A stretch of DNA of 64,000 nt from a virus. Taxonomy: Duplodnaviria; Heunggongvirae; Uroviricota; Caudoviricetes. The translations under genes were made by a program, and so were the position numbers. Shown piece by piece: positions 1-14,135 of this stretch (position 1 is the stretch's first letter; each line of letters starts with the position of its first letter). The notes below the pieces were generated by a model that worked only from the letters and a program-made list of their open reading frames with translations, made no database searches and was not told the origin of the DNA. The stretch lies in the IMG/VR virus record IMGVR_UViG_2724678985_000012; one strand, 5' to 3'.

Positions 1-134
1 GCACGCGGAACAGTTAAAACAATCCTCCTTAGTGGTTAAGTCAAACATCCCGGCGTTAATTGTTAACTGGTTAACGTCACCTGGAGGCACCAGGCACCGC
101 AGCTTTTTTATTCGGTAAATAATGGAGTGAGAGG

Positions 135-1178
135 ATGCAGAACAATCCGAACAAATGTCGAACGCTATGGGTGCGGTTATATATTTATGTCGTCCTCTGT
201 TTGATTGTGTCACTGGTTCTGTATGTTTGGCTTTTGCCAAATATGATCTCATCTGACAGCACAATACTTGTATTGTTGGGAGTCCTTCTCGCGCTCATTT
301 ACCCGGCTTTTGCAGTAGTCTTTTTTCGTGAAAAAACCAGGAAATTGATTAATGAAAAAACGTTGATTAGTGCAGCGATTATTTTTGGTTCTTTATGTCT
401 GACCGGATGCGATCGGGTAGAGCCAGGTAACGTAGGGATCAAAGTAAATAAGCTGGGGGATGATAAAGGTATCGGTGAAGTAGTTGGCGTTGGTCGCTAC
501 TGGACAGGCTTGAATACTGAAGTTTATATCTTCCCGACCTTTAAGCAAATGAAGACATACGATGAGCCGTTCAGCTTCCAGATGAGCGACGGAACAACCA
601 TTGGTTACCACATCGGCGTAGCCTACAAGGTTGATCCAGCAAAAGTCACAACGGTATTTCAGACCTATCGCAAAGGTGTAGATGATATTACTGATACCGA
701 TCTACGCCAGAAGGTTGCAGATGCTCTGAACCGGTTAGCCAGCAAAATGACCACCGACAAATTTATCGACGGTGGCAAATCTGAATTGCTTGATGCAGCC
801 CTTAAAGACATTCAGGAAGAAATGACGCCCATCGGTATTCAGGTAATGAGCCTCTCATATGTGGGCAAGCCGGAGTACCCGCCAACCGTTATCGACAGCA
901 TTAATGCCAAAGTCACGGCGAACCAGAAAACTCTGCAACGCGAGCAGGAAGTCAAGCAACGCGAAGCAGAAGCCAACATGCTGCGCGCAGAAGCTGCTGG
1001 ACAGGCCGATGCCATTCGCACAAAAGCCCAGGCTGAAGCTGATGCCATTCGTTTACGCGGTGAGGCTCTGCGCCAGAACCCCGGCGTTATGGAGTTGGAA
1101 GCGATCAACAAATGGAACGGAACGCTACCGCAGTATATGACCAGTAATACCGCTGTTCCGTTTGTTCCGGTGAAATAA
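135..1178 (+). CDS. SPFH/band-7 (HflK/C, QmcA-like) membrane protein, possibly lipoprotein
   Basis: 347-aa ORF; N-terminal hydrophobic segments, lipobox-like LTGC, Ala/Gln-rich coiled-coil C-terminus typical of SPFH proteins. RBS before ATG 135; alternative TTG start at 345 with AGGA RBS would give a classical lipoprotein signal. Confidence 0.6.
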   Translation: MQNNPNKCRTLWVRLYIYVVLCLIVSLVLYVWLLPNMISSDSTILVLLGVLLALIYPAFAVVFFREKTRKLINEKTLISAAIIFGSLCLTGCDRVEPGNVGIKVNKLGDDKGIGEVVGVGRYWTGLNTEVYIFPTFKQMKTYDEPFSFQMSDGTTIGYHIGVAYKVDPAKVTTVFQTYRKGVDDITDTDLRQKVADALNRLASKMTTDKFIDGGKSELLDAALKDIQEEMTPIGIQVMSLSYVGKPEYPPTVIDSINAKVTANQKTLQREQEVKQREAEANMLRAEAAGQADAIRTKAQAEADAIRLRGEALRQNPGVMELEAINKWNGTLPQYMTSNTAVPFVPVK

Positions 1179-1191
1179 CCAAATAGATAAC

Positions 1192-1323
1192 ATGATGGAA
1201 TTTTGGACGTTTGCCGACAAGAACCCTTGGTGGACATTTTTATTTCTGCTGGTGGTTGCATATGGGGTCGAGCAAGCAGCAAAAGCCTTACGCGGTCCTG
1301 GCAAAAAGCGTAAGCGGAATTAA
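1192..1323 (+). CDS. Small hydrophobic peptide (43 aa) between SPFH gene and tRNA
   Basis: Hand-translated ORF MMEFWTFADKNPWWTFLFLLVVAYGVEQAAKALRGPGKKRKRN; one TM-like segment and basic tail; below the ORF-track size cutoff. Confidence 0.3.
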   Translation: MMEFWTFADKNPWWTFLFLLVVAYGVEQAAKALRGPGKKRKRN

Positions 1324-1332
1324 CAGTAATCT

Positions 1333-1408
1333 GGCCCTTTAGCTCAGTGGTTAGAGCTGGCGACTCATAATCGCACGGTCACCGGTTCAAGTCCGGTAGG
1401 GGCCACCA
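1333..1408 (+). tRNA. tRNA with CAU anticodon (tRNA-Ile2/lysidine type or tRNA-Met)
   Basis: 76-nt cloverleaf: 7-bp acceptor stem GGCCCTT/AGGGGCC, D-loop AGTGGTTAG, anticodon loop CTCATAA, T-arm GGTTCAAGTCC, encoded 3' CCA. Resembles enterobacterial ileX-type tRNA from memory. Confidence 0.85.
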
Positions 1409-1862
1409 TATTTGGTTGTAACACGGCGTCTGGCACATGCGTCGTTAGCGGTCTGGTGACGTTAAAGGGGTATCTTTGACTCTTGCTCAGGCAAACGGAC
1501 CAGGTAGCCGGAATGTGCAAGCCCCGATAACAGTGGCGGACCGAGGACTCACCATCCTGGCGATTCGGTGTGACAGCCGGAAGAGCACGGCGCACAACAG
1601 GAAAAGGCGTTTAATTAGCGTGAGCGCCGTTTCCGTTGTGGTAATTGCGGCTATGCGCTCGTGACGAAGCCATTTTTATTCACTACGTTCTGATAAGTGA
1701 CGTCGCCAGGAGTGGCTAACCTGGCAGGTGGAGGCACCACCGCCACAACTCCTTTCAATTCATCATATAGCCGCTCAGGCTGTACCCCTTAATTAATACG
1801 AATTTACGACATCACTACCGGCACTTCCGGGGGATAGTCGCGCGTGTAAAAAAGGAGACGTT

Positions 1863-2438
1863 ATGTTAATGGCGAACGATAACGCATATGCAGAAGAAGA
1901 TCTCATTTTGAGTGACTTCATAGGGAAGCGGGAACGCTGGACCCAAAAGCGAGAGGAACTTTACGCCTCATTAGTTCGCAAAGGCGTCAATATCGAAACC
2001 GCACAGAGCGGCGATATGACAGTGGTAAGCGTTGGATTGCACGGTGTAAGCGTGTCAGCAATCAATCATGAGCCATACGTTGCGTTATCCGAGTCAATGG
2101 TAAGGTTAGTTAAGTTCCTGAAGTACACAGAAGCGAATAATGTAATCATTGGCAAAAAGAATATCCCTTTTTCCTCGGCTTTTTACTGGATGATGAAAGG
2201 GCTTGATGCCCGGCGGACATCATGGCCTAAAGGGAGCTATATATCGATGTTCCGTGGCAGCATTGGCAGCAAAGAAAAGCTCTTCGAATTCTTGCCGGAA
2301 GAGGCATTCGATATTGTGGAAGGGTGCGATGTGATGGTGATGCCTCGCCTGGTAATGATGAATGGGGATTTACAGGCGCAGACAGACTGGTTTGCAACTG
2401 GTGTGGATATTATCGCGACTGACTGGGAGGCTTTCTGA
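1863..2438 (+). CDS. Hypothetical protein with DUF2829-like motifs
   Basis: 191 aa; FSSAFYWMMKGLDARRTSW and C-terminal DW motifs weakly resemble DUF2829. Confidence 0.45.
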   Translation: MLMANDNAYAEEDLILSDFIGKRERWTQKREELYASLVRKGVNIETAQSGDMTVVSVGLHGVSVSAINHEPYVALSESMVRLVKFLKYTEANNVIIGKKNIPFSSAFYWMMKGLDARRTSWPKGSYISMFRGSIGSKEKLFEFLPEEAFDIVEGCDVMVMPRLVMMNGDLQAQTDWFATGVDIIATDWEAF

Positions 2439-2830
2439 TGTACGGGACTACCAAATTAAGCACTCAACAGGCCACCAATATGGAGTGGTCTATCGCTAAC
2501 TGTAAGATCGTGTCATGCAATGCCACGCGTACTGATGTGGGCCATAAAAGCACTATAACAGGCTATCTAGTAATGACCACCAGGGGGATGAGGGTTAGAT
2601 TTCGCTGGAAAGCAGAGCAAGTAACGCCATTCAGAGAGCCATCAATGCCGCTGCAGGTTGAGCAGGATTATCTATGTTTACCAGAAATAGATGGAGGAAT
2701 GCTGGTGGAGTCTGATGGTAGTAAGGCTGATTTTGAAGCCAATTTGAAGCTGGCACAGGCCGTAATCAATAGTTATCGCGGAAAGTGGATCGCAAAAGTG
2801 AAACATGTTGTTCGTTTGTCTCGCTGGTAG
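2438..2830 (+). CDS. Hypothetical protein
   Basis: 130-aa ORF overlapping upstream stop (ATGA coupling). Confidence 0.4.
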   Translation: MYGTTKLSTQQATNMEWSIANCKIVSCNATRTDVGHKSTITGYLVMTTRGMRVRFRWKAEQVTPFREPSMPLQVEQDYLCLPEIDGGMLVESDGSKADFEANLKLAQAVINSYRGKWIAKVKHVVRLSRW

Positions 2831-2938
2831 CGTTAGGTATTTAATATTAATTTTCTAATATAATCATCTTTTTACCAGTCTATACAGTTTTAACATTCTC
2901 ATTATCATCCCCTCGGTCATTTCCTGCCCGGGGGATTA

Positions 2939-3331
2939 ATGGAACAAATCAGCAGCGCAGAAATTGCGGATATCATGATCAGGGCTGACTGCTATCTGAC
3001 AGTCACTGAAATTACCACTCTCGCCAAAGAAAAATACCCTCATCTCCATGTTTCACGAGTAAGTGTAACTAACATCATTCGTCATTTTGTTCGTTCAAGC
3101 AGGGCAATCTGTGAGCTGGATGATCGTGTGTATCCACGAAAATACTGGCTACATGGTCTGAACGGATATCAGTTCAAGGTGCGCGGGCGCACGCCTGAAT
3201 ACGGTAGCTTACTGGTTAAAAACTGTAGCAGGAAATCAGTCGAACAGGCGCGAAAAGAGCAACGAGAGCTGGTGGACATGGCGAATAAGCTGTGGAATGC
3301 CGCCGTTAAAAAGCGTGGTGTTGCTTTATGA
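2939..3331 (+). CDS. Putative DNA-binding protein at the position of P1 late promoter activator Lpa
   Basis: 130 aa, immediately upstream of and overlapping pacA; HTH-like segment; operator-like motif at 2847-2860 upstream. Confidence 0.4.
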   Translation: MEQISSAEIADIMIRADCYLTVTEITTLAKEKYPHLHVSRVSVTNIIRHFVRSSRAICELDDRVYPRKYWLHGLNGYQFKVRGRTPEYGSLLVKNCSRKSVEQARKEQRELVDMANKLWNAAVKKRGVAL

Positions 3332-4692
3332 GTCTGGTTAATTGGGAGGAGCACCGCGCCCGCTTTATAGCGTTGCGTGAAGAAAAAGGGATCACTGTAA
3401 AGGAATACTGTGAGGAGCATGGCCTTAGCTTCAATACAGCCAGAAAGCATCTCAATATGAAAAAAAATGAGGTGCGGTCGCAGGTAAAGACAACAAAAAA
3501 AAGCACCAAATCACCTGAAAAAAAACGGGCGGGAAGAGCAACAAAAAAGCTGGAAGAGGGTGCAGAAAAAACAAAATTTACAGAAATTGACAATTCGCAG
3601 GGCGCAGGTTCTTTCCGAAGTATGCCGAGAAAGAAAACTTCGGATCATGAAAATAATGCAAATAATAACAATGAGATAAAAGAATCTGTCAGGAGATCAT
3701 TGCGCGAAAAAATGGCGAAAATGATCCCCGAAGAAGATAAAAGCGCCCCAAAAATTGAGGGATCTTCAGCAATGATCCCTGGCGGTGCTGTGCAACGTGC
3801 CACATTGCCCACTACGAATGTGGCTCGCGACATGATGAAGAACGGCGCAGAAGAACACCTGCGGTTAGCAATTCAAATGGCGCAAGAGCGCGCACTTCAG
3901 TATCAAAGCATTGTTGATCAGGAGGCCGAACGTCTACAGGCGGAAATAGACGCCTTGGGCGATAAAGAGCCAGAAGGAATGCACCCTGGGCAGCGCCTTC
4001 TCGGTCTAATCAGTGACGCGGCCTACTACATGAATGATTTTATCAGTAGGTTGGCAGCTATATATCAGTCCGAACAAAAGCTGCGACAGGGGGATGAAAA
4101 GCTTCGTCAGAGCGCTCGCCAGCAAGCATTCAAAGAGGCTGAGGCCAGAGAAAAACTCGAATTAGCACGCCTACAGGCCGAACAGCGTGGCAAAGAGATT
4201 GAATATCGCATTGGCGCTGACGCACGCGCTGCCAGAGTTATCGCCGCCGCTATACGTATGCGTGAGCGCGAGGAACTGGATGATATCGGTGTTGCTGAAT
4301 ACATCGAGCGCCAGGGGGTCAGCGTCCCGGCTATCCTCGCGGCGCGCGCGGCGAAAGCTATCACTCTTCTCGAACCACCTGTTTCTGACGTCAATGATGT
4401 TGATGATGAACAGCTGGACAAAGAGGCAAGGGAGTTTGCAACGCTTCAGGCTAACCATCCGCAATGGCTGGCAGAGCGCCGGGCGGATGTGGCAACCATT
4501 GTTGAAGAATTGGGGTGCGGAGATTACGACCGCAATGGCGAGCGTAAAGCTGGAGAATTCGAGGCCAACGACGAAGAGCTGGATATTGACCCTTCGGCAA
4601 CGGCTGAAATTTACGGTGATTATGATGCATCTGATGCAGGGTATGACGCCGGAGATGATGATATCGCGATAGAACCGCCGGAGGATGATTAA
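3328..4692 (+). CDS. pacA: PacA-like terminase small subunit
   Basis: 454 aa, coupled to downstream PacB; acidic C-terminus; contains GATC-hexamer cluster. Confidence 0.65.
   Translation: MSLVNWEEHRARFIALREEKGITVKEYCEEHGLSFNTARKHLNMKKNEVRSQVKTTKKSTKSPEKKRAGRATKKLEEGAEKTKFTEIDNSQGAGSFRSMPRKKTSDHENNANNNNEIKESVRRSLREKMAKMIPEEDKSAPKIEGSSAMIPGGAVQRATLPTTNVARDMMKNGAEEHLRLAIQMAQERALQYQSIVDQEAERLQAEIDALGDKEPEGMHPGQRLLGLISDAAYYMNDFISRLAAIYQSEQKLRQGDEKLRQSARQQAFKEAEAREKLELARLQAEQRGKEIEYRIGADARAARVIAAAIRMREREELDDIGVAEYIERQGVSVPAILAARAAKAITLLEPPVSDVNDVDDEQLDKEAREFATLQANHPQWLAERRADVATIVEELGCGDYDRNGERKAGEFEANDEELDIDPSATAEIYGDYDASDAGYDAGDDDIAIEPPEDD
3641..3780. other. pac-like packaging site candidate: clustered GATC hexamers in two opposed groups
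   Basis: GATC at 3644, 3696, 3723, 3761, 3774; GATCAT elements on one side, TGATCC/GATCT on the other, as in the P1 pac site inside pacA. Confidence 0.5.
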
Positions 4693-6200
4693 TGGCTGGC
4701 GGGCGCAAGATTAAATGCGTCACCAGCGATCCACGCTGGCGCGATATGGTAATCAAATACCGCTACAACTTTACCCAGGCTGTTGTCGATATTTTTGGGA
4801 TGTTCCCCTCCCACCAGCAGCAGCAGATCATTCAGTCAGTGCAGGAAACGGGGAGTAGGACGACCGTCACGTCCGGACACGGAACGGGGAAGTCGTCCCT
4901 TACCGCGATGTTGCTGTTGATTTTTATGATCCTGTTCCCCGATGCCCGTGTCATCATTGTTGCTAACAAGATAGGCCAGGTAAAAACAGGCGTATTCAAA
5001 TACGTTAAACAGTATTGGGCGAATGCAGTTAAGCGTCATGGGTGGTTGCAGACCTATTTTGTCCTCTCTGACACCATGTTTTATGAGCGCTCCCGTAAGG
5101 GGATTTGGGAAGTTCTCTGCAAAGGTTATCGACTCGGCAACGAAGAAGCGCTGGCGGGGGAACACGCGGCACATTTGCTTCTAATTCTGGACGAAGCATC
5201 TGGTATATCTGATAAGGCGATCGGCGTAATGACCGGTGCTCTTACTGAAGAAGATAACCGGATGTTGATGCTATCCCAGCCAACAAGGCCAAGTGGTTAT
5301 TTCTACGATTCGCACCATTCTCAAGCAAAAACCCCAGACAACCCGAAAGGGATCTGGACAGCAATTGTTCTTAACTCGGAAGAATCACCGTTCGTCACAC
5401 CACAATTCATCAAGCAGAAGCTTCTGGAATATGGCGGGCGCGATTCTATTGAGTACATGGTCAAGGTGCTTGGTCAGTTCCCACGAGAAATTAACGGCTA
5501 TTTGCTTGGTCGTGATGAATGCGATCGCGCTGCTCGCCGCAAGGTGTTGTTGGAGAAAAACTGGGGATGGGTGGCAACGGCTGACGTTGGTAATGGGCGA
5601 GATAAGTCGGTCCTCAACATCTGCAAAGTATCTGGTCACAGGGATAAGCGGCGCGTTGTTAACTTTAAGGTAATGGAGATGCCTGGCACTATGGACCCAT
5701 TGGCCTTTGCTGACTTCATATATAACGAATGTACGCCGGAAAAATACCCGAATATAACAATCGCGGTTGATGCTGATGGTTTTGGTTCTGATACGTGTGC
5801 GCAGTTGGTGCGTCGTGGTGCGAACCCGGTACGTATTCGGTGGGGAAAACCCATGTTTGCGAACAAAGACAGGGAGCGATTTGTTAATCAGCGTGCCTAC
5901 GCAAATATTATGGCGCGAGATGCCATAAAGTCAGGGCGTATGCGGATAGACAGTGACCCTAAAACGGCAGAGCAAGCGTCAAAAATCCCCTTTTTACTGA
6001 ATGAAGAAGGGAAAATGGCGATGATGCGCAAAGAGCACATGCGGCAAAAGCTAAACATCAAATCGCCTGACCGATGGGATACCTACTGCTTCACTATGCT
6101 GGTGGACTATGTGCCTGCTAATGAAGATATTGGTGCCGAAATGGCAACTTTCCGAGATCAGGTTCTGGCGGATATCGAAATGCCGGATCTGGATATATAA
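4692..6200 (+). CDS. pacB: PacB-like terminase large subunit
   Basis: 502 aa; Walker A SGHGTGKS; terminase-like architecture; start overlaps pacA stop. Confidence 0.8.
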   Translation: MAGGRKIKCVTSDPRWRDMVIKYRYNFTQAVVDIFGMFPSHQQQQIIQSVQETGSRTTVTSGHGTGKSSLTAMLLLIFMILFPDARVIIVANKIGQVKTGVFKYVKQYWANAVKRHGWLQTYFVLSDTMFYERSRKGIWEVLCKGYRLGNEEALAGEHAAHLLLILDEASGISDKAIGVMTGALTEEDNRMLMLSQPTRPSGYFYDSHHSQAKTPDNPKGIWTAIVLNSEESPFVTPQFIKQKLLEYGGRDSIEYMVKVLGQFPREINGYLLGRDECDRAARRKVLLEKNWGWVATADVGNGRDKSVLNICKVSGHRDKRRVVNFKVMEMPGTMDPLAFADFIYNECTPEKYPNITIAVDADGFGSDTCAQLVRRGANPVRIRWGKPMFANKDRERFVNQRAYANIMARDAIKSGRMRIDSDPKTAEQASKIPFLLNEEGKMAMMRKEHMRQKLNIKSPDRWDTYCFTMLVDYVPANEDIGAEMATFRDQVLADIEMPDLDI

Positions 6201-6224
6201 AGCCCCGCGATGCGGGGCCGGTTG
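6201..6224. terminator. Bidirectional stem-loop between convergent pacB and repressor genes
   Basis: GCCCCGC-GAT-GCGGGGC hairpin with flanking A/T-rich runs. Confidence 0.45.
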
Positions 6225-6227
6225 TGA

Positions 6228-7265
6228 TTACCAGAGCTTCGCGGCGTACTGCGTTTGGGGGAATGTGTATCCGTAACGTTCTTCGATTGCTTTGCCGTAT
6301 TTTTTACGAGCTTCATTCAGTTTAATGCCGGTCAGGTCGTCTCCAGAGGCCATCATTACGTCTAACAATTCCAGATCCATTTTATCCAGCCTTGCCATTG
6401 CTTCACGTGATGTACGTATCTTACGTTCAATGATATGGCGAATAGCCGGATCGGCATCCTCCAGCATCTTAGCGGATTTCTGCTTAAGGCTTTCATTGCG
6501 AATATCGATGTTCCTTAAGATGTACGACTTCGCAACGTAGCTTGGCTGGTGTTTTTCCAGGTCACGAACACGATATAAGTTAAAATCGCCGAGAAGGCTG
6601 CAAGGTACCGATTCGACGCCAGAATAAATTGTAATGCTCCGGCGTTCACCAACATTATTGACAACGGGGATCGTTGTCTTCGGTAGTCTTGCGAAAACCA
6701 ATGCGCCATGTGCGCCAACTCTAAAGCGAGAAAGGGCATTGCTGCCTTCGATGTTTGTTGTCAGCACAACATCTGTATATGCCTCTTTACGCGCCCGGTA
6801 GATCTCGCCTTCAGGCTCAGCTTCAAAGAAGCGCTGTTCTTCTTCAAGAGCACCTACGATTTGAGAAAAAACCCTATTTTTCAGGCTTTTCTTTATGATT
6901 TTGTCGTATTTTTTTAGCAATTGTTCACGTGTAAATGTACGTGTTGTTGTAGCGCTTTGCACAACGACATGCGTGCTTTGATTGGTGTCCTCAATGATGA
7001 ATGGGATCGGAGAATATACAGACTCAACAATGTTCGACGCTTTGCCGTCGGCATCGCGGCACATGTCAACGAAGGCTTTCCATTCAGCAAGACATTTTTC
7101 AGCTTCTTCTAATATGTTTTGGTCATGCGTTAATGCAACATGGCGGAATTCCTCGCCAGCATAACTGGTATCATGGAAAACAGAGTTTGCGACCACCAGC
7201 TCTTTCCACCGTTCAGCGGTTTGCAGGAACCGTTTGTACTCTTTCTCGATCGACTTCTTACTCAT
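6228..7265 (-). CDS. Putative immunity repressor (C1-like by position and operator context)
   Basis: 345 aa between pacB and lox/cre, where P1 carries c1; operator-like motif 15 bp upstream of its start. Sequence identity to C1 not verified. Confidence 0.4.
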   Translation of the reverse strand: MSKKSIEKEYKRFLQTAERWKELVVANSVFHDTSYAGEEFRHVALTHDQNILEEAEKCLAEWKAFVDMCRDADGKASNIVESVYSPIPFIIEDTNQSTHVVVQSATTTRTFTREQLLKKYDKIIKKSLKNRVFSQIVGALEEEQRFFEAEPEGEIYRARKEAYTDVVLTTNIEGSNALSRFRVGAHGALVFARLPKTTIPVVNNVGERRSITIYSGVESVPCSLLGDFNLYRVRDLEKHQPSYVAKSYILRNIDIRNESLKQKSAKMLEDADPAIRHIIERKIRTSREAMARLDKMDLELLDVMMASGDDLTGIKLNEARKKYGKAIEERYGYTFPQTQYAAKLW

Positions 7266-7279
7266 TATTCCTACTCGAT

Positions 7280-7294
7280 TTAGTTTTCTAACAT
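7280..7294 (+). promoter_or_regulatory. C1-type operator-like site (TTAGTTTTCTAACAT)
   Basis: Exact copy of the dispersed motif; second inverted copy with one mismatch at 7364-7378. Confidence 0.5.
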
Positions 7295-7474
7295 AAAATT
7301 ACTATGACAAATTTATGTCGAATAACAGAGTGAGTAAAGGATCGAACTGTGATTTTTTGTCATCAATTTTAGAAAACCAACCGTAGAAACCACACTTCGC
7401 AAATTAAAGACCATGAAGGCAACGTGTTACTGGTCATCATCAATCTATGATGGATTTAAAAAAATCGGCATTTT

Positions 7475-7508
7475 ATAACTTTAAATAATTGGCATTATTT
7501 AAAGTTAA
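7475..7508. other. lox-like recombination site (13-bp inverted arms, 8-bp spacer)
   Basis: ATAACTTTAAATA-ATTGGCAT-TATTTAAAGTTAa; outer ATAACTT identical to loxP arms, inner arm bases differ; 150 bp upstream of cre. Confidence 0.8.
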
Positions 7509-7516
7509 GCTATAAT
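7489..7516 (+). promoter_or_regulatory. Sigma70-like promoter overlapping lox spacer, directed toward cre
   Basis: TTGGCA, 16-bp spacer, TATAAT. Confidence 0.4.
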
Positions 7517-7659
7517 CATGGGTGGATGATCAGTGTTGACATCACTGAAAATACGTGCCTCGAATCAAAGGTTTGAATCTTGAAAATTAACTTATAGCTA
7601 CCCTGTCATTTTTATATTTTTCGCGTAGCGTCATCTGTATATAGAGGTTAAATAGTTTC

Positions 7660-8688
7660 ATGAGTGAATTAATTATCTCTGGCAGCTCCAGTGGTTTTCT
7701 GCGCAACATTGGCAAAGAGTACCAGGAGGCCGCAGAAAACTTTATGCGGTTCATGAATGACCAGGGGGCTTACGCGCCTAATACTTTGCGCGATCTCCGG
7801 TTAGTGTTTCACTCCTGGGCGAGATGGTGTCACGCTCGCCAGCTCGCCTGGTTCCCGATCTCTCCAGAGATGGCCCGCGAGTATTTTCTTCAGCTGCATG
7901 ATGCTGATCTGGCTTCGACCACCATTGATAAGCACTACGCCATGCTGAACATGCTGCTTTCGCATTGTGGCCTTCCGCCACTTTCGGATGATAAAAGTGT
8001 TTCTCTGGCTATGCGGCGCATCCGGCGTGAAGCGGCAACGGAAAAAGGCGAACGAACAGGCCAGGCTATACCGCTGCGGTGGGACGATCTGAAACTGCTC
8101 GACGTCCTGTTGTCCAGGTCAGAACGGCTGGTGGACCTGCGCAACCGGGCTTTTCTCTTTGTTGCATACAATACGCTGATGCGCATGTCTGAAATCTCGC
8201 GTATTCGTGTAGGAGATCTGGACCAAACAGGTGACACTGTCACGCTACATATTTCACACACGAAGACAATAACGACCGCCGCCGGGCTTGATAAGGTGCT
8301 TTCCCGTCGCACTACTGCTGTGCTGAATGACTGGCTGGATGTTTCCGGGCTTCGTGAACATCCTGACGCGGTGCTGTTCCCGCCGATACACCGTAGCAAT
8401 AAGGCCAGGATTACGACAACGCCCCTTACTGCACCTGCAATGGAGAAAATATTTAGTGACGCCTGGGTGTTGCTGAATAAAAGAGATGCCACTCCAAACA
8501 AGGGGAGATACCGGACGTGGACCGGGCATAGTGCTCGTGTCGGGGCTGCTATCGATATGGCAGAAAAGCAGGTGTCTATGGTGGAGATCATGCAGGAAGG
8601 AACCTGGAAGAAACCGGAAACACTTATGCGGTATCTGCGCCGTGGCGGCGTGTCTGTGGGGGCTAATAGCCGCCTGATGGATTCATAA
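7660..8688 (+). CDS. cre: Cre-like tyrosine site-specific recombinase
   Basis: 342 aa; alignable along its length to P1 Cre from memory (WFP, AFL..AYNTL.R..EI.RIRV.D, HSARVGAA.DMA, C-terminal Tyr in MRYLRR). Confidence 0.9.
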   Translation: MSELIISGSSSGFLRNIGKEYQEAAENFMRFMNDQGAYAPNTLRDLRLVFHSWARWCHARQLAWFPISPEMAREYFLQLHDADLASTTIDKHYAMLNMLLSHCGLPPLSDDKSVSLAMRRIRREAATEKGERTGQAIPLRWDDLKLLDVLLSRSERLVDLRNRAFLFVAYNTLMRMSEISRIRVGDLDQTGDTVTLHISHTKTITTAAGLDKVLSRRTTAVLNDWLDVSGLREHPDAVLFPPIHRSNKARITTTPLTAPAMEKIFSDAWVLLNKRDATPNKGRYRTWTGHSARVGAAIDMAEKQVSMVEIMQEGTWKKPETLMRYLRRGGVSVGANSRLMDS

Positions 8689-8761
8689 ATTAAATTTCTA
8701 ACACATCTTTTTAGATTGTTATCTTTGCTGTAAAGTACCCTCGCCTATTTCGGAGGGTGCT

Positions 8762-9106
8762 TTGCAGAGTCAAATCACGGAATCAAGACGCTTTAAGGTG
8801 GATGGTTACACCGTAACCTTCGCCGCTGGTGTTAAGAACAGTCATGCTGTCGTTGTGTTCGGCATCATGACCGGGCTTGAGGCCGTCCCTGTGTTTACCC
8901 TCGAAAAAAACTGGCGAAATCTGGAGGAAGCAGAAAGCTACGTCCGGAAAGTAACCATCATTGCCGCCGAAAAACTCCTGGCCCACTATCAGGAAAATTA
9001 TCGCACTATGGTCGAGAAGATTAATCTCGCTTTCACTCGCCCCACTACCGGCTTTATTGCACCGGATACTAATGCAGGTCGCTATCCTGCAAGGGGGCGT
9101 CGGTGA
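8762..9106 (+). CDS. Hypothetical protein (TTG start)
   Basis: 114-aa ORF with GGAGGG RBS; first gene of operon downstream of cre. Confidence 0.35.
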   Translation: MQSQITESRRFKVDGYTVTFAAGVKNSHAVVVFGIMTGLEAVPVFTLEKNWRNLEEAESYVRKVTIIAAEKLLAHYQENYRTMVEKINLAFTRPTTGFIAPDTNAGRYPARGRR

Positions 9107-9579
9107 AAACTTATTACACATCTCTGAATTGTTACCCGTCTTCCTATCCAGAATTATCCGGGAAGCTGTTAGCTCTATTAGCTAAAGCACCTACGGAATG
9201 GTTTAAGCCAGTCGTTATCAATCCACACTTCCTGGATTACGGATCTGTTCGCACTCGTAACGAACTCAAAAACCTACTGGCGCATGGATTCATTCGACAC
9301 CGTGCCGGGAAAGGCTATCAGTTAGCGATTGCGCCAGAAGAGGCCGTGCGGCTATTCGCATATCGTGACAGCCAGACAAAAGCTCGGGTAATAGCTCAAA
9401 TACTTCATAACGGCAGCACCTATGCCCGCCAGTTTGGCGGCGACACGTCGCAGTTCTTGCGGGCGGTGCGATCGCTGGAGGAGCAAGGAGTTATTGAAAG
9501 TTCCTGTCTTCCTGTTCCTACCGTTCCACATATCAAACGTCGGGTTTACACCTTCACGCAGAGAGCTAAAAAACAATGA
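9103..9579 (+). CDS. Hypothetical protein
   Basis: 158-aa ORF coupled to flanking genes. Confidence 0.4.
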   Translation: MKTYYTSLNCYPSSYPELSGKLLALLAKAPTEWFKPVVINPHFLDYGSVRTRNELKNLLAHGFIRHRAGKGYQLAIAPEEAVRLFAYRDSQTKARVIAQILHNGSTYARQFGGDTSQFLRAVRSLEEQGVIESSCLPVPTVPHIKRRVYTFTQRAKKQ

Positions 9580-10070
9580 TTTACGTAAAAGTGAAACGCC
9601 TACATCCGGCAGCAAAACTTCCAGCTTATGCCACCTCCGGATCGGCGGCGATGGATTTTGAGGCTGTTGAAATAAAACCATGCGTCGATAGCAATGGTGC
9701 AATTTCCTCAAGCTGGTGGGTGTATACCGGACTGGCTATGGAGATCCCGCCCGGCTGGTGTCTGAAACTCTATCCGCGATCCGGATTGGGCTGCAAAAAA
9801 CATACTCGCCTGGCTAACTGCGTAGGAATTATCGACTCCGATTATCGCGGCGAAATCATGGCAAAACTGATTACTGATCCCGGCGGGGAAGGCGTTTGTC
9901 TCAAGCCTGGAATGGCTGTCATGCAAGGAATTTTTGAACGAGTTGAACAAGTCTCACTAGTCGAGGTTGAGGAACTCAACGAAACGGAACGTGGTGCTGG
10001 TGGCTTTGGTAGCACATCGGAAGGCCACTTTGAAATTAAGCGTTCACCGCTTCAGTACGAAAAGTTATAA
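9576..10070 (+). CDS. dut: dUTPase (dUTP pyrophosphatase)
   Basis: 164 aa; motifs AAMDF, GIIDSDYRGE, C-terminal glycine-rich GGFGSTS. Confidence 0.8.
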   Translation: MIYVKVKRLHPAAKLPAYATSGSAAMDFEAVEIKPCVDSNGAISSSWWVYTGLAMEIPPGWCLKLYPRSGLGCKKHTRLANCVGIIDSDYRGEIMAKLITDPGGEGVCLKPGMAVMQGIFERVEQVSLVEVEELNETERGAGGFGSTSEGHFEIKRSPLQYEKL

Positions 10071-10084
10071 GCAGAGAAAAGACT

Positions 10085-10762
10085 ATGAATAACATGGCAA
10101 CGAAAGAGCTTTTTAAGTTCCTTCCCAAATACAAAGCTCACAAAAACGTTAGTGCATCGAAAATCAAAAATGTTGTTATTTTCGGAGTAACTGATGCCCC
10201 ACTTTGGGGCTGCATCGAACTCGTTGAACCAAAAGGGGCAACAGTTTGTGTTGACGCAATGTTTTTACAAAAACACCGACCAAAAACTGGCGGGTATCTG
10301 ATCGTTTATGAAAACGGTTATCTGTTCTATGCCCCGGAGAAACCATTTGAGGAACGCTATGGCCTGGTTAACGACGCCTCCAAAAATGGAACCACGGTCA
10401 TCATTACGGATGACAACGGCGTGATGATTAATCTTACCGGGAGCGTAACTATTTCTGCTGGTGGCATCACCACCCAGCAAGAAGAAATCGACCTTGAAGC
10501 AGCCGACTTTTCTGACGCGCTGATGTGGCTGAAGGATGGCAAGAAAGTTGCTCGACGCGGGTGGAACGGCGAAAACCAATTCTGCTGGCTGGTTCCTGAA
10601 GGACAGTACCCGGCACGAATGGAAGCCATTAAGGGATATTTCCCCGGCGACCTCGTTCCGTATGGTGCTTATTTCGCCTTAAAAAATGCACAAGGTGTAG
10701 TTGTTCCGTGGGTTCCTTCTGTAGGCGACTTACTGGCATGTGACTGGTTTGTAGTGGAGTGA
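10085..10762 (+). CDS. DUF2829-domain protein (Tad2-like fold candidate) with N-terminal extension
   Basis: 225 aa; C-terminal DFSDALMWLKDGKKVARRGWNGEN ... DLLACDW matches DUF2829 signature as recalled. Confidence 0.5.
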   Translation: MNNMATKELFKFLPKYKAHKNVSASKIKNVVIFGVTDAPLWGCIELVEPKGATVCVDAMFLQKHRPKTGGYLIVYENGYLFYAPEKPFEERYGLVNDASKNGTTVIITDDNGVMINLTGSVTISAGGITTQQEEIDLEAADFSDALMWLKDGKKVARRGWNGENQFCWLVPEGQYPARMEAIKGYFPGDLVPYGAYFALKNAQGVVVPWVPSVGDLLACDWFVVE

Positions 10763-10768
10763 TTTGAC

Positions 10769-11545
10769 ATGGAAAGCACCAAAACAATTCAATACCGCTT
10801 GCGTAATGGCCTGCTGGTGGCTGTTAACGCCGACATGTCACTGCCGTTTGACACGATTGAACGCACTATCATGACGTATCTCGGCTTTAATGAAGAGCTG
10901 AATGAAGAGCATGGCGTAGCTATATGGAGTGATGCAGACAGCGGCGTTCGTCGTTACATCACCGCCAGGGGCAAAGACTACTCTCTGGAAGAACTGTTTA
11001 CCCTTGCGCAGTCTTTCGAATGTGTAGCATTAGACCTGTTTAATGATCCTGCTATAGCGCAACGACTTATACGCGAGCTTGGGCTATCCGTTACACCAAT
11101 TATCTTTAAAAATGGCAGCCTGACTGGCACATGGCGCGTAGAACGCATCTCAAACTACCTTCCATATAACCGACAGTTAAATGGAGTAATCTCCGGCGTT
11201 AATCAGCCCGTAGCGTGTGAAAATGTAAACCTGGTTGTCGCTGTTTTGGCAACCGCATGTCGTGTTATCGGTTTGGCTAAACAGGCATTTATTCATTTCC
11301 CAAATGGTGCAGAAGGTAGCGCAGAGATTATCGCGTGTGATTTCGAATTTACCTGGATGCTACGCGAATATCTGGACCAAACAGTATTCCGTGCCGAAGA
11401 ACTGGATATGTATATCACGTCAACGATTCCAGACGATGTGCGAGCTGAAGCAATCGCTATAGCCAGGGCGAAATGCCGTGCGGCGATTGCAGAACGGGCC
11501 AAAGAAGAACAGTCCAATGATACAGCGGCAGAAGAGGTGAAATAA
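10769..11545 (+). CDS. Hypothetical protein
   Basis: 258-aa ORF ending at strong terminator. Confidence 0.45.
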   Translation: MESTKTIQYRLRNGLLVAVNADMSLPFDTIERTIMTYLGFNEELNEEHGVAIWSDADSGVRRYITARGKDYSLEELFTLAQSFECVALDLFNDPAIAQRLIRELGLSVTPIIFKNGSLTGTWRVERISNYLPYNRQLNGVISGVNQPVACENVNLVVAVLATACRVIGLAKQAFIHFPNGAEGSAEIIACDFEFTWMLREYLDQTVFRAEELDMYITSTIPDDVRAEAIAIARAKCRAAIAERAKEEQSNDTAAEEVK

Positions 11546-11546
11546 C

Positions 11547-11579
11547 AAAAAGCCCGCTTGGTATGGCGGGCTTCTTTTC
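11547..11579. terminator. Rho-independent terminator (bidirectional-like)
   Basis: AGCCCGC-ttggtatg-GCGGGCT followed by TCTTTTC, A-run upstream. Confidence 0.7.
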
Positions 11580-11796
11580 AAATACTGGAAGCACTTTGCC
11601 TGCTACCAAGCATTCTCTGTTTAAGCACAACCATTTCCTGACGGCATAACACAGCAATAGCGGTCCTGGCGCCAATTTGCTTACCAATCAGGTATTGCTT
11701 TACCTCGCGGCGACTCACGCCATCAAGAAGCATCTTTAACGCTTCACGGGACAATTTGTTGTATCTACGTGCCATTAATCTACTCCGCGGAACCAT
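11578..11796 (-). CDS. Possible small HTH protein downstream of doc
   Basis: 72-aa ORF with HTH-like [22 protein letters not shown]; overlaps doc 3' end; weak. Confidence 0.25.
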
Positions 11797-12160
11797 ACAA
11801 TCTACGTAACGTGTCGGCGACAGAAGATACAGATATCTCTCCGGTCGCAGCCCCTACGGTAAGGTCTGCCAGTTCAGGTGAATCAAATACCTGCACCCCG
11901 TTACGGCGTAGAAATAGCAGCGCACTGTTTAGCGCGGTACGCTTATTGGCATCATTGAATATATGCCCTCTCGCCGTAGCCACCAGGTAGGTGGCGGAGA
12001 CTTCGAAAAGGTCGGTGATCTCTTCGTAGGCAACTCTGGCCTGAACTCTCCCGATAATGGCCTCTGCCCTACCCGGATCTGACATGCCCGGCAGTCCGCC
12101 GTAGCGGCTTATATTCGCATCATGAAGCGCAATAAGTTCTTCCGGTGATATATGCCTCAT
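11780..12160 (-). CDS. doc: Doc toxin (Fic-fold kinase, death on curing)
   Basis: 126 aa, essentially P1 Doc as recalled ([22 protein letters not shown]...). Confidence 0.95.
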
Positions 12161-12381
12161 TATCGGTTAACCAGTTCCTTGTTGGTGGAATCCAGAGTGT
12201 CAAACAGAGATGCAAATTCGGCATCCAGCGCCGCTTTTTTGTAGGCTTCGAAAGTAGCCTTGCTGACAATTACTGCTGGCTCACGGCCTCTGCGGGTGAT
12301 TTCAACCTCTTCCCCGGCTTCAACATTGTTGAGCACTTCAGAAAAGTTGCCGCGCGCGGTACGGAAGTTAATGGATTGCAT
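12160..12381 (-). CDS. phd: Phd antitoxin
   Basis: [12 protein letters not shown]...ELVNR matches P1 Phd; ORF track adds two N-terminal residues (to 12387); stop overlaps doc start. Confidence 0.95.
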
Positions 12382-12453
12382 AAACACCTCGTGTACTCAT
12401 TATGTGTACACAATTATAAACCTCACAGGCATAAAGCACCAGCACTTTGCAGC

Positions 12454-13456: not shown

Positions 13457-14135
13457 TGACGCCTAGCGTATGGCCCGGCTTAATCTTTAATGCGGCCTCA
13501 AGATAGCCTCTTTCCAGAGTGGTTTTTACGCTTTTCCTAGGCGCTTGTTGGGAACCATCCGGAAGAACCGGATGGTTCCCAGCCTCATAAGCTACCCGCA
13601 ACCAGTGCATGAATGTTTCCGCAGACACACAACCGCAGTCCACATCGATTTCCCCGCGTTGCTGCTCCAGCCATTGCTCAAAATCTAACTTGTAAGCCTT
13701 ACTTTCAGACTTGACTTTCTGAGACGCTATGCGAGCTGCTTCATACTGTTCACGAGTGACAACCGATGTAAACGCACTGCGATCAAGGTCACTGATATCG
13801 CAAATAATGCCATCAATGGAATAATTCTTTGATGATTGGTAATTTTTATGGCGCGTACCAAAAAGAACCGTAGCGCGACTACTACCTGGCATCGTAATGG
13901 ATAGATGGCAAAAATCTTTTCCATCAGGCCATCCATGCCCCTTAGATAATTCCTTCACTAACAAGTCAATCAGTGTCATAGCTTTACCATCCTTGCAAGG
14001 CGCTAAAGCTATTTTGGCAAGTTCCAATACTTCATCTGCTGTGTATCCAGCACCGTGACCATACATTTCGATACGGGAAATAATATCTGAAATACGCTCT
14101 TTAGTGATTCTTGTCATAGTTTTATTTCCTTGCAT
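13368..14135 (-). CDS. Hypothetical protein
   Basis: 255-aa ORF in minus-strand accessory operon. Confidence 0.45.
   Translation of the reverse strand: MQGNKTMTRITKERISDIISRIEMYGHGAGYTADEVLELAKIALAPCKDGKAMTLIDLLVKELSKGHGWPDGKDFCHLSITMPGSSRATVLFGTRHKNYQSSKNYSIDGIICDISDLDRSAFTSVVTREQYEAARIASQKVKSESKAYKLDFEQWLEQQRGEIDVDCGCVSAETFMHWLRVAYEAGNHPVLPDGSQQAPRKSVKTTLERGYLEAALKIKPGHTLGVIDAMLVHEMAKALLPLVADKHEAGHANES

What the first reader, a model, noticed from the sequence alone, without database searches (positions are those of the whole stretch)
7475..8688. Cre homolog with a lox-like site whose inner arm sequence differs from loxP
The 342-aa recombinase aligns with Cre across its length. The adjacent 34-bp site ATAACTTTAAATA-ATTGGCAT-TATTTAAAGTTAa keeps the outer ATAACTT of loxP but differs in the inner arm bases and spacer. 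This may be a naturally heterospecific Cre/lox pair, useful as an orthogonal recombination tool. A near-consensus promoter (TTGGCA-16-TATAAT, 7489-7516) overlaps the spacer and points at cre, so recombinase binding could autoregulate.
Basis: partly seen in the sequence, partly recalled or inferred. Interest (0 to 1): 0.55.

Follow-up and report, generated by a model that had tools for sequence, protein, structure and literature searches.

The report
Dre recombinase and its rox site

Summary
Window 7476-7507 matches the published 32-bp rox site exactly (TAACTTTAAATAATGCCAATTATTTAAAGTTA, read on the minus strand). It is a perfect 14-4-14 inverted repeat. The 342-aa ORF at 7660-8688 is Dre of phage D6 with one substitution (G11S, 341/342). 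It is 41% identical to Cre and keeps every catalytic residue. The gene order pacA-pacB-c1-rox-dre-orf2-orf3-dut matches the D6 immC record (AY753669), which annotates both dre and rox. The 1.7-kb region is 100% identical to ~92-kb plasmids of Salmonella and E. coli. Published work shows that Dre recombines rox and not loxP, and Cre the reverse. The only part that may not be documented is the promoter. TTGGCA-16-TATAAT (7489-7516) is the only 11/12 or better sigma-70 match in the 64-kb window. Its -35 hexamer contains the rox spacer. Its -10 TATAAT is invariant, 3 nt after rox, in all 24 distinct haplotypes examined, including a lineage whose recombinase is only 70% identical, while neighbouring bases vary. 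P1 has no such lox-embedded promoter. Autoregulation by Dre is therefore plausible but untested.

The parts
7476..7507 (-). rox, the 32-bp Dre recombination site. It has 14-bp inverted arms (7476-7489 and 7494-7507) around the asymmetric 4-bp spacer TGGC (7490-7493). The published orientation (…AATGCCAATT…) reads on the minus strand.
   Evidence: Perfect 14-4-14 inverted repeat. Exact match to published roxP on the minus strand. Identical to the misc_recomb 'rox' feature of AY753669.
7475..7508 (.). The outermost pair, A7475/A7508, is not complementary. D6 has G at the position of 7508.
   Evidence: PMC3082901 gives the D6 boundary bases as (A)…(G).
7489..7516 (+). Sigma-70 promoter-like site pointing at dre. 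The -35 TTGGCA (7489-7494) is the rox spacer plus one base of each arm. The 16-nt gap is the rest of the right arm plus 3 nt. The -10 TATAAT is at 7511-7516.
   Evidence: 11/12 consensus match and the only such match in the window. TATAAT is invariant in 24/24 distinct haplotypes while the 3 nt before it and the bases after it vary. Function is inferred, not shown.
7660..8688 (+). dre, a Cre-like tyrosine recombinase of 342 aa (allele G11S). Catalytic residues are R175, E178, K202, H290, R293, W316 and the Y325 nucleophile.
   Evidence: 341/342 identical to AAV84949.1. 41% identical to Cre. Pfam PF00589 scores 62.6 bits against a cutoff of 27.1. Catalytic residues mapped by alignment; 36 of the 37 nucleotide differences from D6 dre are synonymous.
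7644..7647 (+). Probable Shine-Dalgarno GAGG, 12 nt upstream of the dre ATG.
   Evidence: Read from the sequence. AGAGG is conserved in four of the five D6-type lineages aligned; the fifth, L015, has AGAAA there.
7598..7630 (+). Conserved leader block CTACCCTGTCATTTTTATATTTTTCGCGTAGCG between the promoter and dre. Its TTTCGCGTAGCG core is also present upstream of cra in P1. Its role is unknown.
   Evidence: Alignment A2.
6228..7265 (-). c1, the D6-type prophage repressor (345 aa), divergently oriented on the other side of rox.
   Evidence: Annotated c1 in AY753669 and 'prophage repressor' in MF356679. Weak NCBIfam phage_rep_C1 match.
4692..6200 (+). pacB, the terminase large subunit. It is part of the pacA-pacB-c1-rox-dre arrangement shared with P1 and D6.

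Best explanation
The locus is the Dre/rox site-specific recombination system of a D6-like (P1-related) phage-plasmid of Enterobacteriaceae. Dre is a Cre-type tyrosine recombinase. By homology with Cre, one monomer binds each inverted arm of rox and two rox sites synapse in a Dre tetramer. Tyr325 then cleaves and exchanges one pair of strands to form a Holliday junction, and the second pair resolves it. The asymmetric spacer gives the site its direction. Published work shows that no accessory protein is needed and that Dre acts on rox but not loxP, while Cre does the reverse. By analogy with P1 Cre/lox, its role in the phage is inferred to be circularising terminally redundant DNA after infection and resolving dimers of the plasmid prophage so that it segregates stably. 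Also inferred: dre is transcribed from a sigma-70 promoter whose -35 hexamer is the rox spacer. Dre bound at rox would then occlude RNA polymerase and limit its own synthesis.
For: Identity: the protein is 341/342 identical to D6 Dre. The 32-bp site is identical to the annotated rox of D6 and to published roxP. The neighbours pacA, pacB, c1, orf2, orf3 and dut are in the same order. The region is 100% identical to ~92-kb Salmonella and E. coli plasmids, and 143 plasmid records match. Chemistry: all Cre catalytic residues are conserved, and the protein aligns with Cre over its full length. Selection: 36 synonymous against 1 non-synonymous difference from D6 dre. Specificity, from the literature: no cross-reactivity among Cre, Dre, VCre and SCre and their sites in E. 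coli (PMC3082901); orthogonal in B. subtilis (PMC12331466); no cross-reaction with loxP in mice (PMC3973285). Role: D6-like prophage papers assign multimer resolution to this recombinase and site (PMC6799933). Promoter: an 11/12 match that is unique in the window. The -10 hexamer is invariant in 24/24 haplotypes, including a lineage whose Dre homologue is 70% identical, while the flanks vary. No terminator-like site lies between it and dre.
Against: Nothing contradicts the identification. Three caveats apply. First, this allele carries G11S, found in 2 of 33 related loci, and has not itself been assayed. Residue 11 lies before the region that aligns with Cre, so an effect on specificity is unlikely. 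Second, the Dre cleavage positions in rox have not been mapped definitively (PMC4777119). Third, the promoter and autoregulation are inferred only. A single 11/12 match is within chance for 64 kb (mean 1.5 in shuffles). The -35 hexamer is conserved in any case because it is part of the recombination site. One natural variant (spacer GGGG, L027) would weaken the -35 but still has an intact dre.
Confidence: 0.97

Rival explanations
1. The promoter-like match over rox is incidental. On this view dre is transcribed from weaker promoters further downstream, as cre is in P1, and Dre binding at rox has no regulatory role.
For: In P1 all three annotated cre promoters lie downstream of lox and none overlaps it. 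A single 11/12 match is within chance for 64 kb. The -35 hexamer is constrained by recombination anyway. The region downstream of rox holds another conserved TTGACA (7536-7541) next to a GATC, which recalls the Dam-sensitive P3cre of P1. The GGGG spacer variant would weaken the -35. No D6 record annotates a promoter here.
Against: TATAAT sits exactly 3 nt after rox in all 24 distinct haplotypes. That includes L015, where almost everything downstream has diverged and the recombinase is only 70% identical. The three bases before the hexamer (AGC, GGC, GGT, GTA, TCA) and the bases after it vary. No matching conserved element lies on the left side of rox, so the hexamer is not part of a symmetric recombinase footprint. 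The spacing to the -35 is constant at 16 nt.
Confidence: 0.3
2. This is a new, uncharacterised heterospecific Cre/lox-like pair, the novelty implied by the first reader.
For: None, beyond the fact that public plasmid annotation calls the gene only 'tyrosine-type recombinase/integrase' and does not annotate the site.
Against: The protein is 99.7% identical to Dre and the site is 100% identical to rox. GenBank AY753669 annotates both. The search found 94 papers holding at least two of the terms 'Dre recombinase', 'rox site' and 'phage D6'.
Confidence: 0.01
3. The copy in this window is a decayed, non-functional remnant: the recombinase is inactivated by G11S, or the site is disabled by the change in a flanking base.
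For: One amino-acid change from the reference, and a G-to-A change at 7508 just outside the 32-bp core.
Against: The ORF is intact and every catalytic residue is present. 36 of the 37 differences from D6 dre are synonymous, which indicates purifying selection. An identical 1.7-kb sequence occurs in at least eight complete plasmids from different hosts. The 32-bp core that suffices for recombination in published assays is unchanged.
Confidence: 0.02

Closest known systems
Dre/rox of Escherichia (Salmonella Oranienburg) phage D6 (Sauer & McDermott 2004, Nucleic Acids Res 32:6086; GenBank AY753669, MF356679)
   Same: The rox core is the same 32 bp. The protein is 341/342 identical. Gene order is the same (pacA-pacB-c1-rox-dre-orf2-orf3-dut). 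The TTGGCA-16-TATAAT motif is also the same.
   Different: There is a G11S substitution and 37 nucleotide differences within dre (3.6%). The base after the right arm is A rather than G. The surrounding phage-plasmid is a mosaic relative, not D6 itself.
Cre/loxP of phage P1
   Same: Same fold family and catalytic residues. The site has the same overall layout, and the arms share ATAACTT…ATA. The genomic position next to c1 and the pac genes is the same, and so, by inference, are the roles in circularisation and dimer resolution.
   Different: The proteins are only 41% identical. Three arm positions and the spacer differ, and the literature reports no cross-recombination. P1 has cra and about 420 bp between lox and cre, with three promoters all downstream of lox. 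The D6 type has 152 bp between rox and dre and a promoter-like site embedded in rox.
Panto/pox of Pantoea sp. aB (PMC4957104)
   Same: A Cre-like recombinase whose site differs from rox at one arm position. Dre recombines pox and Panto recombines rox.
   Different: The protein is 52% identical to Dre, four of eight spacer positions differ, and rox does not recombine with pox.
Recombinases that repress their own promoter by binding their recombination site, for example Tn3/gamma-delta resolvase at res (from my own knowledge, not checked here)
   Same: The proposed logic is the same: the recombination site overlaps the recombinase promoter, so site occupancy limits recombinase synthesis.
   Different: Those are serine recombinases with multi-subsite res regions. 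Here the claim concerns a tyrosine recombinase with a minimal site, and it is untested.

Membership tests
Dre/rox system (phage D6 type) | Recombinase essentially identical to Dre (AAV84949.1) | tested here: met
   341/342 identical with no gaps.
Dre/rox system (phage D6 type) | 32-bp rox site, TAACTTTAAATAAT-GCCA-ATTATTTAAAGTTA, immediately upstream of the recombinase gene | tested here: met
   Exact match at 7476-7507 on the minus strand, 152 bp upstream of the ATG. Identical to the rox feature annotated in D6.
Dre/rox system (phage D6 type) | Location in the immC/pac region of a P1-related phage-plasmid (pacA, pacB, c1, rox, dre) | tested here: met
   Same order as AY753669 and MF356679. 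The rest of the window matches ~93-kb phage-plasmids carrying tail and other phage genes.
Dre/rox system (phage D6 type) | Recombines rox x rox without accessory proteins and does not recombine loxP | not testable with these tools
   Shown in the literature for the D6 allele and the identical site. Not assayed for the G11S allele.
Cre-like tyrosine recombinases (Pfam PF00589 Phage_integrase) | Catalytic domain above the family threshold | tested here: met
   PF00589 scores 62.6 bits against a cutoff of 27.1. The N-terminal SAM-like domain PF02899 scores 21.6 against 22.3, just below its cutoff.
Cre-like tyrosine recombinases (Pfam PF00589 Phage_integrase) | Catalytic residues R-E-K-H-R-W and the tyrosine nucleophile | tested here: met
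   R175, E178, K202, H290, R293, W316 and Y325 align with Cre R173, E176, K201, H289, R292, W315 and Y324. The same residues (without K202 and E178) are listed for Dre in PMC4777119.
Cre/loxP of P1 itself | loxP sequence (ATAACTTCGTATA-ATGTATGC-TATACGAAGTTAT) and Cre-level protein identity | tested here: not met
   Arm positions 8-10 are TAA rather than CGT, and the spacer differs (against the P1 lox half-site). The protein is 41% identical. It works like Cre/loxP but is not Cre/loxP.
Recombination site doubling as an autoregulated promoter | Promoter hexamers overlapping the recombinase binding site and conserved beyond their neighbours | tested here: met
   The -35 is the spacer plus one base of each arm. 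The -10 is invariant in 24/24 haplotypes with variable flanks.
Recombination site doubling as an autoregulated promoter | Transcription starts there and is repressed by the recombinase | not testable with these tools
   No expression data were available, and the literature search found nothing relevant.

The most novel reading that the evidence does not exclude
In the D6 lineage, but not in P1, the recombination site has been recruited as the core of the recombinase gene's own sigma-70 promoter: the -35 is the rox spacer, and a right-arm-bound Dre monomer would sit between -35 and -10. If so, Dre represses its own synthesis by occupying rox. The spacer sequence would also be under dual selection, for strand-exchange compatibility and for promoter strength. 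That could explain why natural spacer variants are rare (TAGC in L015, GGGG in L027). As far as I could check, the D6 GenBank records do not annotate such a promoter and no paper in the searchable library mentions one. I could not read the original 2004 description, which may mention it.
Probability: 0.4. Interest if true: 0.3.

Novelty: already known. Interest (0 to 1): 0.1.

Why it matters
As a discovery it does not matter. Dre/rox was described in 2004 and is a standard orthogonal partner to Cre/loxP in mice, mammalian cells and bacteria. The result does show that the first-stage reader can recover a real heterospecific recombinase and site pair from raw sequence. Two small points may be useful to people who use the tool. 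First, wild-type rox followed by its native TATAAT looks like a strong bacterial promoter, and the 32-bp site alone supplies a near-consensus -35. That could cause read-through expression or Dre-dependent repression in bacterial constructs. Second, natural rox variants exist in public data: A9G in the left arm, and spacers TAGC and GGGG. There is also a Dre homologue only 70% identical that keeps identical arms. These could inform work on specificity and on heterotypic sites.

Tried and rejected
1. I tried to read the primary papers, but none is held: Sauer & McDermott 2004 (by DOI and by PMC534624), Lobocka 2004 on the P1 genome (PMC523184), and Gilcrease & Casjens 2018 on the D6 genome (PMC5800970). 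What these papers say is therefore taken from papers that cite them, from GenBank annotation, or from my own memory, and is marked as such.
2. A search for papers on autoregulation at lox or on cre promoters returned only mouse-genetics papers. A search for 'cryptic promoter' together with 'rox site' returned one irrelevant paper.
3. A scan of one genome per species for rox with a free spacer gave a single hit. It is an AT-rich palindrome in a Clostridia MAG, flanked by A and T runs, with no Dre homologue in the 8 kb of DNA fetched around it. I treated it as a chance or terminator-like match, not a rox site.
4. I considered whether rox resembles a P1 C1 operator. By eye, only about half of the 17 positions match the consensus as I recall it, so I dropped the idea.
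5. I considered a second promoter at the conserved TTGACA (7536-7541). Its best -10 candidate, TCGAAT, lacks the A at position 2 and is not picked up by the scan, so it remains only an observation.
6. I did not run structure prediction or the large protein searches. Identity to a characterised protein made them unnecessary.

Full report
OBSERVATION. The repeat finder reports a perfect inverted repeat with arms 7476-7489 and 7494-7507, 14 nt each, separated by 4 nt (TGGC). That parse is legitimate, but its outermost pair (A7475/A7508) does not match. The 32-mer is unique in the window and none of 100 shuffles produced a match. Perfect 14-nt-arm hairpins with loops of 10 nt or less occur twice in 64 kb, against a mean of 0.005 in shuffles. 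The ORF at 7660-8688 (+) encodes 342 aa. It aligns with Cre over residues 22-341 at 41% identity. It passes the Pfam Phage_integrase threshold. The promoter-like site TTGGCA-16-TATAAT at 7489-7516 is present with 11 of 12 consensus positions.

IDENTITY. A megablast of 7200-8900 against phage records hits Escherichia phage D6 at 96-97% identity. The features under the match are annotated 'dre: tyrosine recombinase', 'c1' and 'region of crossover (rox) site for Dre recombinase'. The window protein is 341/342 identical to Dre AAV84949.1; the only change is G11S. The c1-dre intergenic region is 98% identical to D6, and the 32-bp rox core is unchanged. The wild-type roxP sequence printed in PMC4777119 is 5'-TAACTTTAAATAATGCCAATTATTTAAAGTTA-3'. 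It matches 7476-7507 exactly on the minus strand. PMC3082901 gives the site in the other orientation with its D6 boundary bases, (A)TAACTTTAAATAAT TGGC ATTATTTAAAGTTA(G). The window differs only in the last boundary base, A7508. Mapping by alignment to Cre gives R175, E178, K202, H290, R293, W316 and Y325. These include the residues listed for Dre in the literature. Of the 37 nucleotide differences from D6 dre, 36 are synonymous, so the gene is under purifying selection.

CONTEXT. To the left lie lpa, pacA and pacB (4692-6200), then the divergently oriented D6-type c1 repressor (6228-7265). To the right lie orf2, orf3, dut and, further on, phd/doc. This is the same order as in the D6 immC record and the complete D6 genome. 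The 1.7-kb region is 100% identical to at least eight ~92-kb plasmids of Salmonella enterica and E. coli. In all, 143 plasmid records and 117 of 5426 complete E. coli genomes carry a match, almost always on a plasmid. Window 1-12418 is 99.66% identical to pMFDS1011659, after which the similarity becomes patchy. The next 25 kb matches other ~93-kb phage-plasmids at about 97% and carries tail and other phage genes. The window is therefore a mosaic D6-like phage-plasmid, a group already described in Salmonella Typhimurium ST213 (PMC6799933).

MECHANISM. Recombination chemistry: published work, as cited by the papers read here, shows that Dre recombines two rox sites by excision and by integration in E. 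coli and in mammalian cells. It also shows that the Cre/loxP and Dre/rox pairs do not cross-react. The related Panto recombinase does cross-react with rox. That Dre needs no accessory proteins is recalled from the original 2004 description, which I could not read. By homology with Cre I infer one monomer per arm, a tetrameric synapse, Tyr325 attack, a Holliday-junction intermediate, and directionality from the asymmetric spacer. The exact cleavage positions in rox have not been mapped definitively.

BIOLOGICAL ROLE. This is inferred by analogy with P1 Cre/lox. P1 Cre circularises terminally redundant DNA after infection (from my own knowledge), and the recombinase and site are assigned multimer resolution of the plasmid prophage in D6-like prophages.

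THE PROMOTER. This is the only part of the finding that is not plainly documented. The geometry is as follows. The -35 hexamer 7489-7494 consists of the last base of the left arm, the 4-bp spacer and the first base of the right arm. The 16-nt gap is the remaining 13 bases of the right arm plus 3 nt. The -10 hexamer is at 7511-7516. Dre bound to rox would cover the -35 and the spacer DNA. On statistics, it is the only match of 11/12 or better on either strand of the window, but shuffles give a mean of 1.5 per window. Within the 394-nt intergenic region and in the right orientation, 1.5% of shuffles give one.

PROMOTER CONSERVATION. I collected rox-containing loci from IMG/VR (32 loci) and diverged plasmid relatives. 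These gave 38 sites and 24 distinct 92-nt haplotypes. The recombinases in these loci range from 100% down to 70% identity to the window protein. TATAAT lies exactly 3 nt after rox in all 24 haplotypes. The 3 nt before it are AGC, GGC, GGT, GTA or TCA, and the bases after it also vary. In L015, the lineage with the 70%-identical recombinase, nearly everything downstream has diverged but TATAAT remains. No mirror-image conserved element lies on the left of rox, which argues against the hexamer being part of an extended recombinase footprint. P1 has no equivalent: its three annotated cre promoters all lie downstream of lox, and the sequence after lox contains no TATAAT at that position. No D6 record annotates a promoter here, and the literature search found nothing on it. 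I rate a functional promoter at about 0.65 and Dre-mediated repression of it at about 0.4 overall. The original 2004 paper could not be read and may already mention it.

COMPARISON AND NOVELTY. The locus passes every sequence-level membership test for Dre/rox. It is a Cre-like system but not Cre/loxP: the loxP sequence test fails at three arm positions and in the spacer, and the protein is 41% identical. Novelty: already known. Interest: low. The residual interest lies in the rox-embedded promoter and in the natural variants of the site.

WHAT LED NOWHERE. Three primary papers were not available. The scan of one genome per species returned only an AT-rich palindrome in a Clostridia MAG, which is not a rox site. 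The literature searches on autoregulation found nothing relevant.

Noticed in passing
L015 2524-3737 (IMGVR_UViG_3300009011_000012, 89-kb contig): A 342-aa Dre homologue only 70% identical to Dre sits next to a site whose 14-bp arms are identical to rox but whose spacer is TAGC rather than TGGC. TATAAT still lies 3 nt after the site, while the rest of the leader has diverged. It may be a natural heterotypic rox, and it shows how strongly the arms are conserved relative to the protein.
   Followed up: partly
L027 12405-12436 (IMGVR_UViG_2579778873_000001): A rox site with spacer GGGG (CCCC on the other strand) lies next to a dre gene 99.1% identical to the window's. This is either a real natural spacer variant, which would weaken the -35 hexamer, or a sequencing error.
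   Followed up: no
L003 1702-1733, L005 1711-1742 and about ten IMG/VR loci (for example L013, L016, L017, L022): A common natural arm variant, TAACTTTAGATAAT (A9G in the left arm only), makes the two arms 13/14 complementary. It occurs with Dre proteins from 89% to 99.7% identical, so Dre evidently tolerates it.
   Followed up: partly
window 7528-7541 and 7560-7575: Two further conserved blocks lie between rox and dre. One is GATC followed by a perfect TTGACA (7536-7541). The other is TCGAATCAAAGGYTT. The GATC next to a -35-like hexamer recalls the Dam-methylation-sensitive P3cre promoter annotated in P1. D6 itself has lost this GATC.
   Followed up: partly
window 7598-7630; L002 (P1) 163-174: The leader block CTACCCTGTCATTTTT…TTTTCGCGTAGCG is almost invariant across all D6-type lineages. 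Its TTTCGCGTAGCG core is also present in P1, upstream of cra. In P1 the homologous upstream region precedes cra rather than cre, so dre occupies the position of cra. The function of the block is unknown.
   Followed up: no
window 13549-13581: This is the only other perfect inverted repeat with 14-nt arms in the window: GGGAACCATCCGG-AAGAA-CCGGATGGTTCCC. It is G+C-rich and has no obvious T run after it. It lies in a segment where the window diverges from plasmid pMFDS1011659.
   Followed up: no
window 12418 onwards, compared with L041 (CP092511.1): The window is 99.66% identical to pMFDS1011659 over 1-12418. After that the identity drops to patchy 90-96% blocks. This is a recombination or mosaic junction, typical of D6-like phage-plasmids.
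   Followed up: partly
L008 6381-6412 (OZ007016.1, uncultured Clostridia MAG): The pattern for rox arms with a free spacer matched exactly, giving TAACTTTAAATAAT-TAAT-ATTATTTAAAGTTA flanked by an A run and a T run. No Dre homologue is present in the 8 kb of DNA fetched around it. It looks like an AT-rich bidirectional terminator-type hairpin rather than a recombination site. It could act as a pseudo-rox site.
   Followed up: partly
L006 1500-2900 (NZ_MK356558.1, pSa1423-160k): This D6-like copy has a truncated right rox arm and many single-base indels, and its dre reading frame is broken into small annotated ORFs. It is either a decayed copy or an error-rich assembly.
   Followed up: no
L007 1-294 and 1519-2731 (NZ_CP090571.1, IncFIB/IncN plasmid pBY63-1): An intact rox and a dre homologue (89% identical) lie on a mobilizable IncF/IncN plasmid, with an IS26 about 1.2 kb upstream. 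The module has apparently been captured outside a phage-plasmid backbone.
   Followed up: no
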